DNA of 64,000 nt from an uncultured Clostridia bacterium. GTDB lineage: Bacteria; Bacillota; Clostridia; TANB77; CAG-465. This document shows positions 26,706 to 56,792 of this stretch, in pieces. The first letter of the stretch is position 1. Each line of letters opens with the position of its first letter. The stretch is taken from positions 42,660 to 106,659 of the forward strand of contig CAOYAN010000002.1 in the NCBI GenBank assembly GCA_948562205.1. Direction: 5' to 3'. Both the position numbers and the translations under genes were made by a program. The notes beneath the pieces are model-generated. The model saw nothing but the letters and a program-made list of their open reading frames with translations, searched no databases and was not told where the DNA came from.

Positions 26706-26848
26706 TGGATACTTTTAAAGTGGGAGATATAGTAGCAAGACGATCATATAACTATGATGTATTATTTAGGATAACAAATTTAAATAATGGAATTGCAGAC
26801 CTTGTTGGAATATCTGTAAGAATAGTTGCAGATGCACTAGTAGTCTGA
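26706..26848 (+). CDS. yabG: yabG 5' segment (first ~47 codons of the sporulation-specific protease gene, terminated at the element junction)
   Basis: TTG start with an AGGTGG ribosome-binding site; encodes MDTFKVGDIVARRSYNYDVLFRITNLNNGIADLVGISVRIVADA(LVV*). This matches the YabG N-terminus as I recall it (B. subtilis MQFQIGDMVARKSYQMDVLFRI...VRLIADS). The ORF caller extended it upstream to ATG 26654. Confidence 0.75.
26828..26837 (+). other. left attachment/crossover core GCAGATGCAC (attL)
   Basis: A 10-bp sequence identical to 56773-56782 at the other end of the element, preceded by AATAG at both ends. It lies exactly where colinearity with YabG breaks. Confidence 0.65.
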
Positions 26849-27444
26849 TGACAGATTTTCCAACAATATCTAAATTGTATAGTGAAATCAATGAAAAATA
26901 CTTTAATAATAAGTTTATAAGTGTTAATAGTAAATACGTTTCTGAATTATTTAATAAAGTAAGAGAGAAAAATATAAATACGAAAATATCAATCGTTATT
27001 GATAAAGAGCCACCATTAGAACTTTTAGAAAGTGAAGATTTAATTGATAAAATTCAATATTATAGAGTATTGAATAATATTCCAAAAACTAAAATGGCAA
27101 ACTTAATAGGAGTGGATGCAGAGACATATTCAAATTATGAAAAAAAGAGAATTCCATTTGTAAATCCTGTATACGTTAATATTCTATTAGAAGAATTAAA
27201 TATTAAAGAGAAAATAGAAATACCAGAGTTTATTAAATTTATTGAGGAATATCCACTTCCCAAAATAATAAATATTCTTAAAGATGAGATGATAACTAAA
27301 TCCGATTTTATTAAGAAGAGTGGCATAAGTAGGTATGCACTTGATAGTTGGATTAAGAAAAATGGAAATCAAAAAATACAGGCCTGTATGTATGAAAAAC
27401 TATACTTATATTGGAAAAAGTATAAAGGATATGGAAAAGAGTGA
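26848..27444 (+). CDS. HTH-domain protein at the left end of the element (no ribosome-binding site; in frame with the recombinase ORF across the predicted circular junction)
   Basis: Two HTH-like segments (KTKMANLIGVDAETYSNYEKKR and ITKSDFIKKSGISRYALDSWIKK). Its ATG overlaps the yabG-segment stop, and there is no Shine-Dalgarno sequence upstream. Confidence 0.4.
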   Translation: MTDFPTISKLYSEINEKYFNNKFISVNSKYVSELFNKVREKNINTKISIVIDKEPPLELLESEDLIDKIQYYRVLNNIPKTKMANLIGVDAETYSNYEKKRIPFVNPVYVNILLEELNIKEKIEIPEFIKFIEEYPLPKIINILKDEMITKSDFIKKSGISRYALDSWIKKNGNQKIQACMYEKLYLYWKKYKGYGKE

Positions 27445-27448
27445 TTAT

Positions 27449-28306
27449 ATGGAAGAAACAAAATACATATCAATTAATGAATTAGAAGATTTTAAAAATC
27501 ATCCATATAAAGTTACTGAAGATGAGAAATTACAAGAGTTAGTTGAAAGTATAAAAATTAATGGTGTTTTATCTCCAATCATTGTTAGAAAAAAAGAAGA
27601 TAAATATGAAATAATATCAGGTCATAGAAGGAAGAAAGCTTGTATGTTAGCTAATATAAAAGAAATTCCTTGTATAGTAAAAGATTTAAATGATAATGAG
27701 GCAACTATATTAATGGTTGATAGTAATATACAAAGAGAAGAAGTCTTACCTAGTGAGAAAGCTTTTGCTTATAAAATGAAATTAGATGCTCAAAAACATC
27801 AAGGTGTAAGAAAAAATATAACTTCTGTCCGAGATGAACAGAAGTTAAAAATTACAACTAGAGATAAAATAGCTTTAGAAGTTGGAGAAAGTTCATCTAA
27901 TATTAGAAGATACATTAGGCTAACTAATTTAGTAAAAGAACTTTTAGATTTAGTTGATAATAAAAAAATAGCTTTAAGTCCAGCGGTTGAGCTTTCGTAT
28001 CTAAGTGAAAAAGAGCAAAAAAGAATATATCAAAATATAGAATTTTTAGATATTACACCTTCATATTCTCAAACAATTCGTATGAAAAAATTATCACAAT
28101 TAAATAAACTTACTTTTGAAAAAATAGATGATATAATGTTGGAGGAAAAACCTAATCAAGTTGAAAAAATAAAATTAAATTCAGCAAGATTAAAAAAAGT
28201 ATTACCTAAAAATATATCTAGCGAAAAGCAAATAGAAGATTACATTATAAAATGTATAGAAAGCGTAAAAAAAAATAAAAGATTAGATTTAGAAAATGAA
28301 AGATAA
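27449..28306 (+). CDS. ParB/Spo0J-like nuclease-domain protein
   Basis: ParB box GVLSPIIVRKKEDKYEIISGHRRKKAC followed by a helical DNA-binding region. Start taken at Met39, which has an AAGAGTGA ribosome-binding site. Confidence 0.7.
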   Translation: MEETKYISINELEDFKNHPYKVTEDEKLQELVESIKINGVLSPIIVRKKEDKYEIISGHRRKKACMLANIKEIPCIVKDLNDNEATILMVDSNIQREEVLPSEKAFAYKMKLDAQKHQGVRKNITSVRDEQKLKITTRDKIALEVGESSSNIRRYIRLTNLVKELLDLVDNKKIALSPAVELSYLSEKEQKRIYQNIEFLDITPSYSQTIRMKKLSQLNKLTFEKIDDIMLEEKPNQVEKIKLNSARLKKVLPKNISSEKQIEDYIIKCIESVKKNKRLDLENER

Positions 28307-28350
28307 TAGAGGATAAAAACTCTATTATTTTTTTGTTTGAAAGGAGTTGT

Positions 28351-54455: not shown

Positions 54456-54662
54456 TTGAAAAAATATGGAGGAAAAATAATGTTAAAATTTATTTTAATT
54501 TCAATATTAAGTTATTTATTGGGTGTATTTTCAGTTTGTATATTTTCTATAATAAAGACTAGCTCTATGTGTAGTAGAGAGGAAGAAAATAAGAAAAATT
54601 GGTTTAAATTTGGGCAAGATGTTTATGATGAGATAGAGAAGATGGAAAATGGCGAAAAGTAA
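54456..54662 (+). CDS. small membrane protein
   Basis: 68 aa with one TM segment. Confidence 0.2.
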   Translation: MKKYGGKIMLKFILISILSYLLGVFSVCIFSIIKTSSMCSREEENKKNWFKFGQDVYDEIEKMENGEK

Positions 54663-54708
54663 TATTAATTGTGATAAAACATAAATTGATATTATAAGGG
54701 AGCAATTA

Positions 54709-54867
54709 TGGAAATAAAAATCAACTATCCTGAAAATGAAAATTATATAGACAATTTTGCCTTTGTAAAATCTTTTTTTATAAAGAAAACGATAGAGAGC
54801 TTGAATATAACTTATGAAGAAAAGAAAGAAATATATAATGAAATATTAGATAGTTTAAAGGAATAAT
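54709..54867 (+). CDS. 52-codon ORF immediately upstream of the recombinase gene (candidate recombination directionality factor)
   Basis: AGGGAG ribosome-binding site, then ATG; encodes MEIKINYPENENYIDNFAFVKSFFIKKTIESLNITYEEKKEIYNEILDSLKE. It is absent from the ORF track, which reports only ORFs of 60 aa or more. Confidence 0.2.
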
Positions 54868-54914
54868 AAATTTGCACATTTGTGTTGAGATAATTTGAAT
54901 AGTAAAATTTATAT

Positions 54915-56792
54915 ATGGAGCGTGATATGATGAAAGAAAGAATAAGAATTGCTATTTATTCAAGAAAATCTAAGTATTCTGATAAAGGGGATTCAGTAAA
55001 AAATCAAATAGAATTATGCTTAGAATATATAAATTTGCATTATTCAAATAATATTTATGATGTGGAAACAATAATTTATGAAGATGAAGGATTTTCAGGT
55101 GGTAATTTTAAAAGACCACAATTTCAAAAGTTTATTGAGGATGAAAGAATAAAACCTTATGATATACTTATTTGTTATAGATTAGATAGAATAAGTAGAA
55201 ACTTATCAGATTTTTCATCTCTAATGGATGAGATTACTAAACTAAATACTAGTTTTATTTCTATAAAAGAGCAATTTGATACGAAGAGTCCGATGGGGAG
55301 AGCTATGATGTATATTGCTTCAGTATTCTCACAATTAGAGAGAGAGGTAATAGCAGAAAGAATACGAGATAATATGATGGAGCTTGCTAAAACTGGCACC
55401 TGGCTTGGTGGAAAACCACCAAGGGGTTTTGATGCCCAAAGGTATGAAAAAGTCAAAGTTTGTGAAAGAGGATCAGATGACTTAGCAGATACTAAGGTTA
55501 AGAAAGCCTGTAAACTTGTAATTAATGATGAAGAAATGAAGATAGTAGAGTTAATTTTTGAAAAGTATTTGGAATTAAAAGCATTAGTAAAAGTCGAAAC
55601 TTATTTAATTCAAAATGATATTAAATCTGAAAAAGGAACAACTTATACAACAAGTACAATAAGGAAAGTTTTAATTAATCCTACATATGTAAAAAATGAT
55701 ATTGATGTATATAATTATTTTAAAAGCAAAGGCATTTGTATATTTGCTGAAAATGATGGTAGAGAAAAATTTGATGGAAAATATGGAATTATGCCATATA
55801 ATAGAACAAAAGATGGTAAATTATTACCAATAGAAAATTGGGTATTAGCTGTAGGACTACATGAAGGAATAATTACAGGAGAACAATTTGTAAATGTACA
55901 AACTTTATTAGAAAATAATAAGGATAAAAAATATAGAGCTATTAAAGATTCTACTAGAAATACTGTTATGGTAGGATTATTAAAATGTAAAGAATGTGGC
56001 TCATATATGCGTCCAAAAAATGGCGGACAAAAATTAAAAGATGGAACAATTTCATATTATTATTCATGTACATTAAAAGAAAAATCACGAGGTACAAAGT
56101 GTAATTCTAAAAATGTAAAAGGTGATTTCATAGATAATGAAATAATTAATATATTAAAGAATATATTTGTTCCAAATTCAAAATTATATAAAGAATTAAA
56201 AAATATGGCAATAGAGGATTCAAATATAAAAGAAGATGTTGAAATAAAGAAACTGAAAAAACAATATTATAAAAATAAAGAAGAAATAAATAATCTTATA
56301 AATAATTTAAAGTATATTGATGAGTCTCTAGTTGTGTTAGTTAATGAAGAAATGAAAAAGTTAAAAAAACAAAATGATAACATATCTGAAAAACTTAAAA
56401 GTTTCGATGAATTTAATTTAGAGAAAAAAAGAGAAGAAAAGTCTTTAAGTAATACAGCTAAAGATATATTAAAAATAATTGATAATTGTTTTGATATATT
56501 TGATTATTTTGATTTAAAAACAAAAAGAGATATATTAAAATTGTTTATTGAAAGTGTTTATTATGATAAGGAAACACAAAAAATAGAAGTAAATTTATTA
56601 AATAGCAAAATAGAAGAAGAAAATAAAAATTATTTGATCGGAATATCAAAAGATTTCTTAAAAAAAAAGTTGTTAGCAGAGAATGATAGCAAATGCACTA
56701 GTAATCTGATGACAGAAAATTCTGAAGGATCAGAATTTTTTAAAAATCTTAAGTTGTCAACAGACTACAATAGCAGATGCACCAGAATATGA
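54915..56792 (+). CDS. large serine recombinase (resolvase catalytic domain + recombinase domain + zinc ribbon + coiled-coil); 3' end overlaps the right attachment core
   Basis: Catalytic region RIAIYSRKSKYSD (nucleophile Ser); ...YRLDRISRN...; zinc ribbon CKECGSYMRP...YYYSC; a long Lys/Glu-rich coiled-coil. Its last codons ...NSRCTRI* contain GCAGATGCAC. Confidence 0.85.
   Translation: MERDMMKERIRIAIYSRKSKYSDKGDSVKNQIELCLEYINLHYSNNIYDVETIIYEDEGFSGGNFKRPQFQKFIEDERIKPYDILICYRLDRISRNLSDFSSLMDEITKLNTSFISIKEQFDTKSPMGRAMMYIASVFSQLEREVIAERIRDNMMELAKTGTWLGGKPPRGFDAQRYEKVKVCERGSDDLADTKVKKACKLVINDEEMKIVELIFEKYLELKALVKVETYLIQNDIKSEKGTTYTTSTIRKVLINPTYVKNDIDVYNYFKSKGICIFAENDGREKFDGKYGIMPYNRTKDGKLLPIENWVLAVGLHEGIITGEQFVNVQTLLENNKDKKYRAIKDSTRNTVMVGLLKCKECGSYMRPKNGGQKLKDGTISYYYSCTLKEKSRGTKCNSKNVKGDFIDNEIINILKNIFVPNSKLYKELKNMAIEDSNIKEDVEIKKLKKQYYKNKEEINNLINNLKYIDESLVVLVNEEMKKLKKQNDNISEKLKSFDEFNLEKKREEKSLSNTAKDILKIIDNCFDIFDYFDLKTKRDILKLFIESVYYDKETQKIEVNLLNSKIEEENKNYLIGISKDFLKKKLLAENDSKCTSNLMTENSEGSEFFKNLKLSTDYNSRCTRI

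What the first reader, a model, noticed from the sequence alone, without database searches (positions are those of the whole stretch)
26838..56782. The intervening element is a complete conjugative element (Tn1549-like module), not a degenerate skin-type remnant
Between the two yabG segments lie ParB-like, RepA_N, RadC, ArdC, MobC and MobA/VirD2-type relaxase genes, a VirD4/TraG coupling ATPase, a VirB6-like protein, several small membrane proteins, a VirB4 ATPase, an M23 peptidoglycan hydrolase and an orphan MT-A70 methylase. A sortase and its LPxTG thioester-adhesin substrate follow, then a divergent XRE regulatory switch, sigma-like Orf7/Orf8 analogues and the large serine recombinase. This is a full transfer-competent gene set of the Tn1549/CTn family. 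Known sporulation intervening elements are defective prophages or small remnants. Developmental excision here would release a potentially mobilisable conjugative element only in the mother cell, while the spore germline retains it. This links conjugative-element biology to sporulation. Alternatively, the element excises in vegetative cells for transfer and uses yabG merely as a safe attB.
Basis: partly seen in the sequence, partly recalled or inferred. Interest (0 to 1): 0.75.

Follow-up and report, generated by a model that had tools for sequence, protein, structure and literature searches.

The report
Conjugative element splitting sporulation gene yabG
A complete, apparently still mobile 30-kb conjugative element sits exactly inside the sporulation protease gene yabG of an uncultured low-GC Clostridia bacterium, and stripped-down relatives keeping only its recombinase occupy the same site in other species, which suggests that some sporulation-gene "intervening elements" descend from conjugative elements and not only from phages.

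Summary
Window 26838-56782 (29,945 bp) is an intact integrative and conjugative element (ICE). It is bounded by a 10-bp direct repeat (GCAGATGCAC) inside codon ~45 of yabG. Strains of the same species with an empty site show the exact join.

All listed domains are present. No transfer gene is pseudogenised: the apparent VirB4 split is a conserved two-gene arrangement. Transfer genes are under purifying selection.

"Tn1549 family" is only loosely right. The orf7/orf8-like regulatory module and the gene order are shared. I also found the Rfam pemK RNA motif, which maps onto the Tn916 antiterminator canT. However, the ATPases are 24-27% identical to Tn1549, the hydrolase differs, and the recombinase is a large serine recombinase.

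Developmental excision is not shown. It is supported indirectly:
- A sigma-E-type motif lies before a conserved 52-aa recombination directionality factor (RDF) candidate.
- A sigma-K-type motif lies before yabG.
- Minimal 3.9- and 5.9-kb derivatives in yabG of other hosts keep only this small ORF plus the recombinase.
- A 41%-identical sister recombinase lies in a sigK skin-like element.

Counter-evidence: one ICE-bearing lineage has a frameshifted yabG, and this strain has a second 4.25-kb insertion in the yabG 3' end.

Verdict: a new variant of a known kind, of moderately high interest.

The parts
26661..26687 (+). sigma-K-type promoter motif (AC-N16-CATATAATA) upstream of the yabG ribosome-binding site and TTG start
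   Evidence: There are 8 such motifs on both strands of the window (8.8 expected), so position is the only evidence. C. difficile yabG-like CD3569 is sigma-K controlled (PMC3789822).
26705..26837 (+). yabG 5' segment (44 codons), continuing 3 codons into the element to a TGA that overlaps the ATG of the first element gene (TGATG)
   Evidence: Pfam Peptidase_U57. The start was mapped from the 288-aa gene of the empty-site contig L086. Intact YabG passes TIGR02855.
26828..26837 (.). attL core GCAGATGCAC; inferred crossover dinucleotide GA at 26831-26832, within the symmetric TGCA-GA-TGCA
   Evidence: The core narrows to GCAGATGC in ICE variant 2 and to GCAGAT in L002.
26838..56782 (+). the integrative and conjugative element, 29,945 bp
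   Evidence: Empty-site comparison; gene content.
26848..27444 (+). 198-aa double-HTH protein. In the excised circle it is the in-frame C-terminal extension of the recombinase.
   Evidence: The same architecture is seen in the sigK element L009.
27335..31496 (+). maintenance and establishment genes: ParB-like (27335-28306), RepA_N (28333-29160), 146-aa ORF, DUF3846 (29594-29950), RadC (29943-30509), ArdC (30576-31496)
   Evidence: dN/dS 0.06-0.23.
31584..32758 (+). relaxosome: MobC/NikA (31584-31877) and a 302-aa MobA/VirD2-type relaxase (31850-32758)
   Evidence: Pfam 127.9 bits with the full nuclease domain. 32% identical to the Tn1549 relaxase. dN/dS 0.10.
33087..34928 (+). VirD4-type coupling protein
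   Evidence: Pfam. NCBIfam CD1115 family 344.7 bits against a cut-off of 250.
34942..36251 (+). 82-aa pilin-like membrane protein, TrbL_4/VirB6-like protein (35200-36042), 69-aa membrane protein
36279..38162 (+). 627-aa protein with seven DUF4379 treble-clef zinc fingers around a central nuclease-like region; cargo inside the transfer operon
   Evidence: Present in relatives (L101). The nuclease call rests on reading the sequence only.
38477..41155 (+). PrgI/VirB3-like (38477-38788), TrsD-like 196-aa protein (38785-39375), VirB4 ATPase (39347-41155)
41145..41828 (+). membrane-anchored M23 peptidoglycan hydrolase (VirB1 analogue)
42198..42752 (+). orphan MT-A70 methyltransferase
   Evidence: 54% identical to the Tn1549 MT-A70.
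44464..47809 (+). sortase (44464-45009), 211-aa N-terminally anchored protein (45068-45703), TED/SpaA adhesin ending ELPKTGK* (45740-47809)
47932..48639 (-). Spo0A-like orphan response regulator (receiver + Spo0A_C)
51463..53424 (.). divergent XRE pair (51463-51777 on the minus strand; 52306-52665 on the plus strand) and a SpoVT_C-like protein (52729-53424, minus strand)
53657..54265 (+). Sigma70_r4 protein (Tn916 Orf7-like) and HTH_16 protein (Orf8-like)
   Evidence: The same pair is annotated in Tn1549 and Tn916.
54362..54439 (+). pemK RNA motif (RF02913), inferred canT-like processive antiterminator
   Evidence: 50.4 bits against a gathering score of 34.8. It lies at the same position in Tn1549 and in Tn916/Tn925, where it falls inside canT.
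54456..54662 (+). 68-aa membrane protein
54660..54687 (+). sigma-E-type promoter motif TAATATT-N13-CATAAATT, 21 nt before the p52 start
   Evidence: 6 hits in the window on both strands against 2.8 expected. Conserved in L001 and L095, and independently present in L002.
54708..54866 (+). p52, a 52-aa acidic protein immediately upstream of the recombinase; RDF (excision factor) candidate
   Evidence: Kept in all relatives, including the minimal elements. dN/dS 0.16-0.21. No family match.
54915..56792 (+). large serine recombinase, 625 aa; its ORF runs across attR into yabG
56687..56716 (.). internal degenerate copy of the core plus the right attP arm (TAGCAAATGCAC-TAGTAATCTGATGACAGA), with AA in place of the GA crossover; part of an 84-bp duplication
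56773..56782 (.). attR core GCAGATGCAC
56783..57488 (+). yabG 3' segment, up to the second insertion
57489..61742 (+). independent 4,254-bp element in the yabG 3' end (M10 protease, resolvase fragment, 550-aa TnpX-like serine recombinase at 60057-61709); not part of the ICE

Best explanation
The segment is an intact ICE of a divergent Firmicutes type, in an uncultured low-GC Clostridia host.

Integration. Its large serine recombinase (LSR) integrated it at a GA dinucleotide in the symmetric core TGCA-GA-TGCA within codon ~45 of yabG. yabG is a sporulation protease gene preceded here by a sigma-K-type promoter motif.

Gene layout. The transfer genes are a MobC/MOBP-type relaxase, VirD4, VirB6/TrbL, PrgI, TrsD + VirB4, an M23 hydrolase, and a sortase with an adhesin. 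They form one co-directional block starting at the left end. The control module lies at the right end: an XRE switch, Orf7-like sigma, Orf8-like HTH, a pemK/canT-like antiterminator RNA, p68, p52 and the LSR.

Inferred control of transfer. As in Tn916, the transfer genes are joined to their promoter and antiterminator only after excision makes a circle. Here the joint even fuses the LSR reading frame to the left-end HTH gene, giving 825 aa.

Inferred control of excision. Excision restores yabG exactly. I propose two triggers, as for SPbeta:
- a vegetative route through the XRE/Orf7 module, for conjugation;
- a mother-cell route from a sigma-E-type promoter in front of p52, the likely recombination directionality factor, which would reconstitute yabG before sigma-K transcribes it.

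What is shown and what is inferred. Shown: anatomy, boundaries, intactness, population polymorphism, the in-frame joint, and the RNA motif. Inferred: promoter use, p52 as the RDF, the timing of excision, and transfer.
For: Boundaries and mobility:
- The empty attB in five same-species contigs equals the exact join. Five others are occupied, by two ICE variants.

Intactness:
- Domains are confirmed.
- The 196-aa ORF is a conserved stand-alone gene, as it is in pBMB67.
- dN/dS is 0.06-0.28.

Tn916-like logic:
- Sigma70_r4 and HTH_16 are present.
- The pemK motif is present at 54362-54439. It lies at the equivalent place in Tn1549 and inside the Tn916 canT deletion, with its first three bases being the canT(S3) site (PMC11658703).
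- No plus-strand terminator was detected from 26.0 to 45.7 kb.
- The LSR-HTH fusion is in frame, and natural 780-aa fusions exist.

Sporulation link:
- All LSRs at least 67% identical abut yabG, in four host backgrounds.
- These include a 5.9-kb element with a ParB::MobC fusion relic (MobC part 74% identical) and a 3.9-kb minimal element. Both retain an intact LSR and p52.
- A sigma-E-type motif lies before p52 and is conserved across these elements.
- A sigma-K-type motif lies before yabG. yabG is sigma-K dependent in C. difficile.
- An LSR 41% identical, with the same split architecture, sits in a 6.9-kb element inside sigK.
Against: - There is no experimental or read-level evidence of excision. 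No circular-junction protein or contig was found for this ICE. That search was uninformative, because attL was also absent from the collection.
- Promoters are consensus matches in 25% GC DNA.
- p52 has no homology to any known RDF.
- No VirB8-like component could be identified; both structure models had low confidence.
- The adhesin lacks a canonical sorting signal.
- A yabG allele with a 1-nt frameshift occurs in three samples, one of which carries the ICE. This strain also has a second insertion altering the last 8 YabG residues. Selection for an intact yabG is therefore not strict in this species.
- L002 has a possible frameshift in the yabG 5' stub.
Confidence: 0.6

Rival explanations
1. 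Safe-harbour ICE only. The element excises in vegetative cells for conjugation and targets yabG merely because the gene is conserved, dispensable during growth, and transcriptionally silent outside the mother cell. There is no developmental role.
For: - The Tn916/Tn1549-type regulatory module is complete.
- A frameshifted yabG allele occurs in an ICE-bearing lineage.
- A second unrelated LSR element sits in the same gene.
- Many LSR relatives at 36-45% identity sit at other, unidentified sites.
Against: - Minimal derivatives that have lost all transfer genes still keep an intact LSR and p52 under purifying selection, in yabG of other hosts.
- A sigma-E-type motif is conserved before p52.
- A sister LSR lies in a sigK skin-like element.
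Confidence: 0.28
2. Domesticated or immobile relic. The element no longer transfers and persists only as an excisable insert, or as junk.
For: - No VirB8-like protein was identified.
- The adhesin sorting signal is non-canonical.
- A large zinc-finger gene interrupts the T4SS operon.
Against: - All core genes are intact with dN/dS of 0.06-0.28.
- Presence/absence and two variants occur at one site within one species.
- The T4SS module is found on dozens of contigs.
Confidence: 0.07
3. A member of the Tn1549/CTn family in the strict sense.
For: - The order VirD4 - small membrane protein - VirB6 - PrgI - VirB4 - hydrolase is similar, and the orf7/orf8/pemK module precedes the recombinase.
- VirD4 passes the CD1115 family cut-off.
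- MT-A70 is 54% identical.
Against: - VirB4 is 24% and VirD4 27% identical to Tn1549. TrbL, PrgI, sigma and HTH give no hit.
- VirB4 scores 164.5 bits against a cut-off of 325 for CD1110, and its best match is the Mycoplasma-ICE VirB4 family.
- The ATPases are closer to pBMB67 (34% and 29%).
- Serine recombinase instead of tyrosine recombinase, M23 instead of C40 hydrolase, and a split instead of a fused VirB4.
Confidence: 0.1

Closest known systems
yin element of Clostridium botulinum V73 (PMC10747680)
   Same: An LSR-bearing element inserted in the coding sequence of yabG. Excision restores the gene and yields a circle (shown there by PCR and qPCR).
   Different: By its authors' description, yin is prophage-like, with its recombinase next to the 5' yabG fragment. 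The element here is an ICE with the recombinase next to the 3' fragment. The authors reported no other yabG insertions. The sequences were not compared here.
skin, SPbeta, vfbin, vrin and gin intervening elements of Bacillus and Clostridioides (PMC4191935, PMC5595907, PMC5025042)
   Same: A mother-cell sporulation gene split by an element carrying an LSR at one end plus a small RDF. The RDF is driven by mother-cell sigma factors in the characterised cases. An LSR 41% identical to this one lies in a 6.9-kb sigK element.
   Different: Those are prophages, prophage remnants or a small non-viral element. This one carries a full conjugation apparatus. Developmental excision is untested here.
Tn916 (and its regulatory circuit; PMC11658703)
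   Same: An XRE repressor region, Orf7-like sigma, Orf8-like HTH and the canT/pemK RNA lie upstream of the excision and integration genes. The transfer genes are co-directional beyond the joint, so they are expressed only from the circle.
   Different: - Tn916 has a tyrosine integrase with Xis and a low-specificity target, an FtsK-like coupling protein and a Rep_trans relaxase. This rests on established knowledge and was not tested here.
- Tn916 has an insulating terminator at its left end. None was detected here, and the first element gene is translationally coupled to the yabG stub.
Tn1549 (copy on E. faecium plasmid NZ_LR135403.1) and the C. difficile CTn elements (PMC3158075)
   Same: Overall module order, a CD1115-family VirD4, MT-A70, an ArdC-like protein, MobC plus a PF03432 relaxase, and the orf7/orf8/pemK module. 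CTn2, CTn5 and CTn7 also use large serine recombinases.
   Different: 24-32% identity in core proteins; a fused CD1110 VirB4 against the split VirB4 here; C40 against M23 hydrolase; Xis plus tyrosine integrase in Tn1549.
Conjugation module of Bacillus thuringiensis plasmid pBMB67
   Same: Closest plasmid-borne VirD4 (34-38%) and VirB4 (26-29%). Identical order: relaxase - VirD4 - small protein - TrbL - PrgI - ~200-aa protein - ~600-aa VirB4.
   Different: pBMB67 is a plasmid, has a large MobP3 relaxase (no hit to the relaxase here) and has no integration module.

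Membership tests
Integrative and conjugative element (generic) | Site-specific recombinase with identifiable attL/attR and a reconstructable attB | tested here: met
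   The LSR has three Pfam domains. The 10-bp direct repeat and empty sites match the exact join.
Integrative and conjugative element (generic) | Relaxase, coupling protein and VirB4 ATPase, all apparently intact | tested here: met
   The VirB4 split is conserved. dN/dS is 0.10 for the relaxase.
Integrative and conjugative element (generic) | Remaining mating-channel parts (VirB6, VirB3, hydrolase, VirB8-like) | tested here: inconclusive
   TrbL_4, PrgI and M23 were found. No VirB8-like protein was recognised by sequence. The models of the two candidates had pLDDT 46 and 33.
Integrative and conjugative element (generic) | Demonstrated excision and conjugative transfer | not testable with these tools
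   The only evidence is presence/absence polymorphism and two variants at one site.
Tn1549 family | Tyrosine integrase plus Xis at the right end | tested here: not met
   Tn1549 is annotated with an excisionase and a site-specific integrase. The element here has a large serine recombinase.
Tn1549 family | VirB4 of the CD1110 family, VirB6 of the CD1112 family | tested here: not met
   VirB4 scores 164.5 bits against a cut-off of 325. TrbL has no CD1112 hit. Identity to Tn1549 VirB4 is 24%, and TrbL gives no hit.
Tn1549 family | VirD4 of the CD1115 family | tested here: met
   344.7 bits against a cut-off of 250. The family also includes Bacillus plasmids and pCF10, so it is not specific to Tn1549.
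Tn1549 / Tn916 regulatory module | Orf7-like sigma, Orf8-like HTH and the pemK/canT RNA upstream of the recombination genes | tested here: met
Sporulation-gene intervening elements | Insertion inside the coding sequence of a mother-cell-expressed sporulation gene, with exact in-frame restoration on excision | tested here: met
   Sigma-K dependence of yabG is taken from C. difficile and from a motif at 26661.
Sporulation-gene intervening elements | RDF expressed from a mother-cell (sigma-E/K) promoter | tested here: inconclusive
   The candidate p52 is conserved in all relatives, with a sigma-E-type motif upstream. Neither function nor expression was tested.
Sporulation-gene intervening elements | Excision observed during sporulation | not testable with these tools
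   No attP contig was found, but the search was uninformative.

The most novel reading that the evidence does not exclude
Excision in the mother cell produces a transfer-ready circle. Joining the ends connects the Orf7-type promoter and the canT-like antiterminator to the transfer operon, and converts the 625-aa recombinase into an 825-aa recombinase-HTH isoform that reports the excised state. The terminally differentiated mother cell could then serve as a sacrificial conjugative donor, while the spore keeps the integrated copy. Elements of this kind would also be the ancestors of a class of non-phage intervening elements in yabG and sigK.
Probability: 0.15. Interest if true: 0.85.

Novelty: new variant of a known kind. 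Interest (0 to 1): 0.62.

Why it matters
- Origin of intervening elements. Sporulation-gene intervening elements have been explained as decayed prophages, and the origin of non-viral ones such as gin was left open. Here a full ICE, a half-decayed ICE (with a ParB::MobC relic) and minimal recombinase-only elements occupy the same yabG site. That gives a plausible conjugative origin and a testable decay series.
- A second class of yabG-interrupting element. One paper stated that no yabG insertion other than yin was known. This adds an ICE class.
- Recombinase pairs. It defines new large-serine-recombinase/att pairs with single-site specificity.
- Recombinase gene architecture. The recombinase gene is split by its own attP.
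- The pemK RNA motif. Linking the uncharacterised Rfam pemK RNA motif to the experimentally defined Tn916 antiterminator canT gives that motif a likely function across many Firmicutes elements.

Tried and rejected
- VirB4 frameshift pseudogene: rejected. The 196-aa ORF is a conserved separate gene with its own GGAG ribosome-binding site and an overlapping start.
- ICE boundary at the second recombinase: rejected. That recombinase belongs to an independent 4.25-kb element, which is absent from an ICE-positive contig.
- Exact look-up of the recombinase: not on record.
- Genome-representative scan with the recombinase: the best hit was only 45% identical, so the host species representative lacks the element or is absent.
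- Host naming: cluster look-ups returned no names. Only '[Clostridia bacterium]' labels were found on YabG homologues at 67-76% identity.
- VirB8-like search: sequence search against the PDB and single-sequence AlphaFold models of p211 and p342 were uninformative, so no fold search was run.
- attP junction search in JGI metagenomes and IMG/VR: no hits. The attL control was also negative, so the result says nothing.
- Wrong accession: a plasmid accession recalled from memory turned out to be pIP816 (vanA) and not a Tn1549 carrier. Tn1549 was then found through a VanA protein search.
- dN/dS for the adhesin gave an implausible value (2.8). This was probably a divergent or misaligned stretch, and it was discarded.
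- Sigma-70 promoter scans were not above the shuffled expectation, so they were not used.

Full report
**Observation**

The window has about 25% G+C. Between 26.8 and 56.8 kb, nearly all ORFs up to 47.8 kb lie on the + strand.

The ORF at 26654-26848 matches positions 1-45 of Peptidase_U57 (YabG). The ORF at 56827-57501 is the rest of the protein. A 10-bp direct repeat, GCAGATGCAC, lies at 26828-26837 and 56773-56782. Joining the flanks there gives one open yabG frame.

**Boundaries proven by empty sites**

I looked up the 74-aa protein encoded just upstream of yabG. This returned ten contigs of the same species from different sequencing runs.
- Five carry an uninterrupted yabG. Their sequence is exactly attL-left plus attR-right, joined at the core.
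- Five carry the element.
- Two element variants occupy the site. The second variant is 74-92% identical in left-end proteins and shares only GCAGATGC with attB.

The intact gene passes the NCBIfam YabG equivalog (311 bits against a cut-off of 270).

The core is symmetric, TGCA-GA-TGCA. The reconstructed attP has imperfect inverted arms (TGTCAACAGACTACAA ... TAGTAGTCTGATGACA) centred on GA. In a second host the shared core shrinks to GCAGAT. I therefore infer GA (26831-26832) as the crossover dinucleotide.

**Is the gene set intact?**

The explicit refutation test was a truncated relaxase or VirB4.
- Relaxase. It is 302 aa and covers the whole PF03432 nuclease domain (127.9 bits).
- VirB4. It appears as a 196-aa ORF plus a 602-aa ORF in different frames, overlapping by 29 nt, with a GGAG before the second start. 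This is not a frameshift.
  - The 196-aa protein is a conserved stand-alone protein in 74 clusters, from 100% down to 52% identity. Nearly all are exactly 196 aa.
  - The arrangement recurs in every related contig.
  - The nearest plasmid system, pBMB67, has the same 227-aa + 630-aa pair.
  - The ORF weakly matches TrsD and the N-terminus of CD1110-type VirB4.
- Selection. Pairwise dN/dS between variants is 0.06-0.28 for ParB, RepA_N, ArdC, MobC, the relaxase and the left-end HTH gene.
- Not identified. No VirB8-like component was found. Sequence searches against the PDB found nothing. Single-sequence models of the two best candidates had low confidence (pLDDT 46 and 33).
- Adhesin. It ends ELPKTGK* in all variants and is followed by a terminator hairpin. 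It therefore lacks the usual hydrophobic tail.

**Which conjugation family?**

NCBIfam places VirD4 in the CD1115 family (344.7 bits against a cut-off of 250). VirB4 is not in the CD1110 family (164.5 against 325). Its best match is the Mycoplasma-ICE VirB4 family (300 against 590). The small membrane proteins weakly match the Mycoplasma pilin-like family.

I retrieved a Tn1549 copy from an E. faecium plasmid and compared it directly:

| Protein | Identity to Tn1549 |
|---|---|
| VirD4 | 27% |
| VirB4 | 24% |
| Relaxase | 32% |
| ArdC | 29% |
| MT-A70 | 54% |
| TrbL, PrgI, sigma, HTH_16 | no hit |

The ATPases are closer to B. thuringiensis pBMB67 (34% and 29%), which has the same gene order. 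Tn1549 also has a fused VirB4, a C40 hydrolase, and Xis plus a tyrosine integrase.

The element therefore resembles Tn1549 in layout, but it is not a member of that family.

**A Tn916/Tn1549-type control module, including an RNA**

Upstream of the recombinase lie a Sigma70_r4 protein and an HTH_16 protein. The same pair precedes xis and int in Tn1549 and Tn916.

Rfam finds one family in the whole window: the pemK RNA motif at 54362-54439. It scores 50.4 bits against a gathering score of 34.8 and lies between HTH_16 and the next ORF. The same motif sits at the same place in these elements:
- relatives L001 and L095;
- Tn1549, between the Orf8-like gene and xis;
- the Tn916-type element of pCF10, at 41822-41922 on the minus strand.

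That interval falls inside the 162-bp canT deletion of Tn916. The first three bases of the motif (ATA) are the site of the canT(S3) mutation, which abolishes antitermination and conjugation but not excision (PMC11658703). I infer that the pemK motif is the core of canT, and that the window's copy is a processive antiterminator.

In Tn916, the transfer genes are transcribed from Porf7 only after circularisation (PMC11658703). Here all transfer genes are co-directional beyond the joint. No plus-strand terminator was detected from 26.0 to 45.7 kb. The same logic probably applies.

**The recombinase gene is split by its own attP**

The LSR ORF runs across attR and ends 10 nt into yabG. In the reconstructed circle it continues in frame into the left-end 198-aa HTH gene, giving an 825-aa protein.

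This is unlikely to be chance.
- Natural 780-782-aa LSR-HTH proteins exist. Their C-terminal part aligns with the left-end gene.
- A 6.9-kb element with an LSR 41% identical has the same layout. Its HTH ORF opens at attL, and its circle gives a 770-aa fusion.

In the integrated state, the ATG of the HTH gene overlaps the stop of the yabG stub (TGATG). It could therefore be translated from yabG transcripts. The functional meaning is unknown. The minimal derivatives lack the HTH gene, so it is not needed for excision.

**Link to sporulation**

All LSRs at least 67% identical to this one abut the 3' part of yabG, in four host backgrounds (YabG 100%, 74%, 66% and 66% identical).

- L002 (5.9 kb). 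Its left ORF is a fusion of a ParB fragment and a MobC fragment, the latter 74% identical to the window's MobC. It is therefore a decayed ICE.
- L094 (3.9 kb). This element keeps two unknown ORFs, p52 and the LSR.
- Both retain an intact three-domain LSR and the 52-53-aa ORF immediately upstream, with dN/dS of 0.13-0.27. The pemK RNA is absent from both.

Retention of only the recombination unit is the pattern seen in skin-type elements. It argues that excision is itself selected.

A strict sigma-E-type pattern (ZHATAXX-N13-15-CATAnAnT) occurs six times on both strands of the window (2.8 expected). One occurrence lies 21 nt before p52. It is conserved in L001 and L095 and is present with a different -35 sequence in L002.

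A sigma-K-type pattern (AC-N16-CATATAATA) lies just upstream of the yabG ribosome-binding site. In C. difficile, the yabG-like gene is sigma-K dependent. There, sigma-E and sigma-K promoters share the CATA -10 box and differ in the -35 box (ATA for sigma-E, AC for sigma-K).

The element with the 41%-identical LSR interrupts a gene that, when rejoined, passes the SigK equivalog (301 bits against a cut-off of 298.65). The clade therefore includes a skin-type element.

**Counter-evidence**

- A yabG allele with a 1-nt insertion in the conserved ITAGANFASAP motif occurs in three runs. One of these carries the ICE.
- In the window itself, a separate 4,254-bp element (57489-61742) replaces the last eight YabG residues. 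It carries a TnpX-like LSR.
- L002 may have a frameshift in the yabG stub.

An intact yabG is therefore not strictly maintained, which favours the safe-harbour reading. No circular form was found, although the negative control shows that this search was uninformative.

**Comparison with the literature**

- yabG interruption has been described once: the prophage-like yin element of C. botulinum. Its authors found no other case.
- An ICE carrying a sporulation-type recombination unit has been built artificially (ICEBs1 with the SPbeta unit).
- Abe et al. speculated that the non-viral gin element might derive from a conjugation system.
- A general statement that gene-regulatory integrative elements can be full-sized ICEs exists.
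- My searches found no natural ICE reported inside a sporulation gene.

**Verdict**

The element is a real, intact ICE. The family assignment should be loosened. The developmental-excision idea is plausible and now has specific, testable components: p52, the sigma-E-type motif, and the decay series. It is not demonstrated. I rate it as a new variant of a known kind.

Noticed in passing
window 57489-61742: A second, independent 4,254-bp element lies in the same yabG gene, 28 bp before its stop. It changes ...RGQYRMGMPGL* to ...RGQLHS*. It has a CA crossover, imperfect terminal inverted repeats, an M10 protease, a resolvase fragment and a 550-aa TnpX-like serine recombinase (DUF4368). It is absent from the empty-site contigs and from the ICE-positive contig L001.
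   Followed up: partly
window 54362-54439; L106 24574-24671; L108 41822-41922 (minus strand): The Rfam pemK RNA motif coincides with the experimentally defined antiterminator canT of Tn916. It lies inside the 162-bp deletion, and its first three bases are the canT(S3) site. It occupies the same position in Tn1549 and in this ICE. The canT paper does not mention the motif.
   Followed up: yes
window 56687-56716: An 84-bp duplication inside the recombinase 3' end carries a degenerate copy of the core and right attP arm, with AA in place of the GA crossover. It is shared by L001 and L095 (recombinases at least 86% identical). It is absent from L094 and from the 68%-identical recombinases. Its function is unknown.
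   Followed up: partly
L009 4443-11760: A 6.9-kb skin-like element interrupts sigK in a goat-gut Bacilli MAG. Its recombinase is 41% identical to the window's, and it shows the same split recombinase/HTH gene across attP.
   Followed up: partly
L084, L089, L001 (yabG 3' part): A strain lineage of the same species carries a 1-nt insertion that frameshifts yabG in the conserved ITAGANFASAP motif. It was seen in three independent runs.
   Followed up: partly
window 47932-48639 (minus strand) and 52729-53424 (minus strand): The ICE cargo includes a Spo0A-like orphan response regulator (receiver + Spo0A_C) and a SpoVT_C-like protein, so it may interfere with host sporulation control. The yin element was reported to advance entry into sporulation.
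   Followed up: no
window 36279-38162: A 627-aa protein with seven DUF4379 zinc-finger repeats around a central nuclease-like segment sits in the middle of the T4SS operon. Assemblies of related elements break at this gene.
   Followed up: no
window 20807-23446: A large ORF has internal ~372-bp tandem repeats. The homologous genes in related contigs are annotated with choline-binding repeats, and many contigs end there.
   Followed up: no
window 38477-41155 and 34942-36251: The best NCBIfam matches of VirB4 and of the small membrane proteins are the Mycoplasma ICE families (Mbov_0397, Mbov_0395). This hints at a shared ancestry of this T4SS type with mycoplasma ICEs.
   Followed up: no
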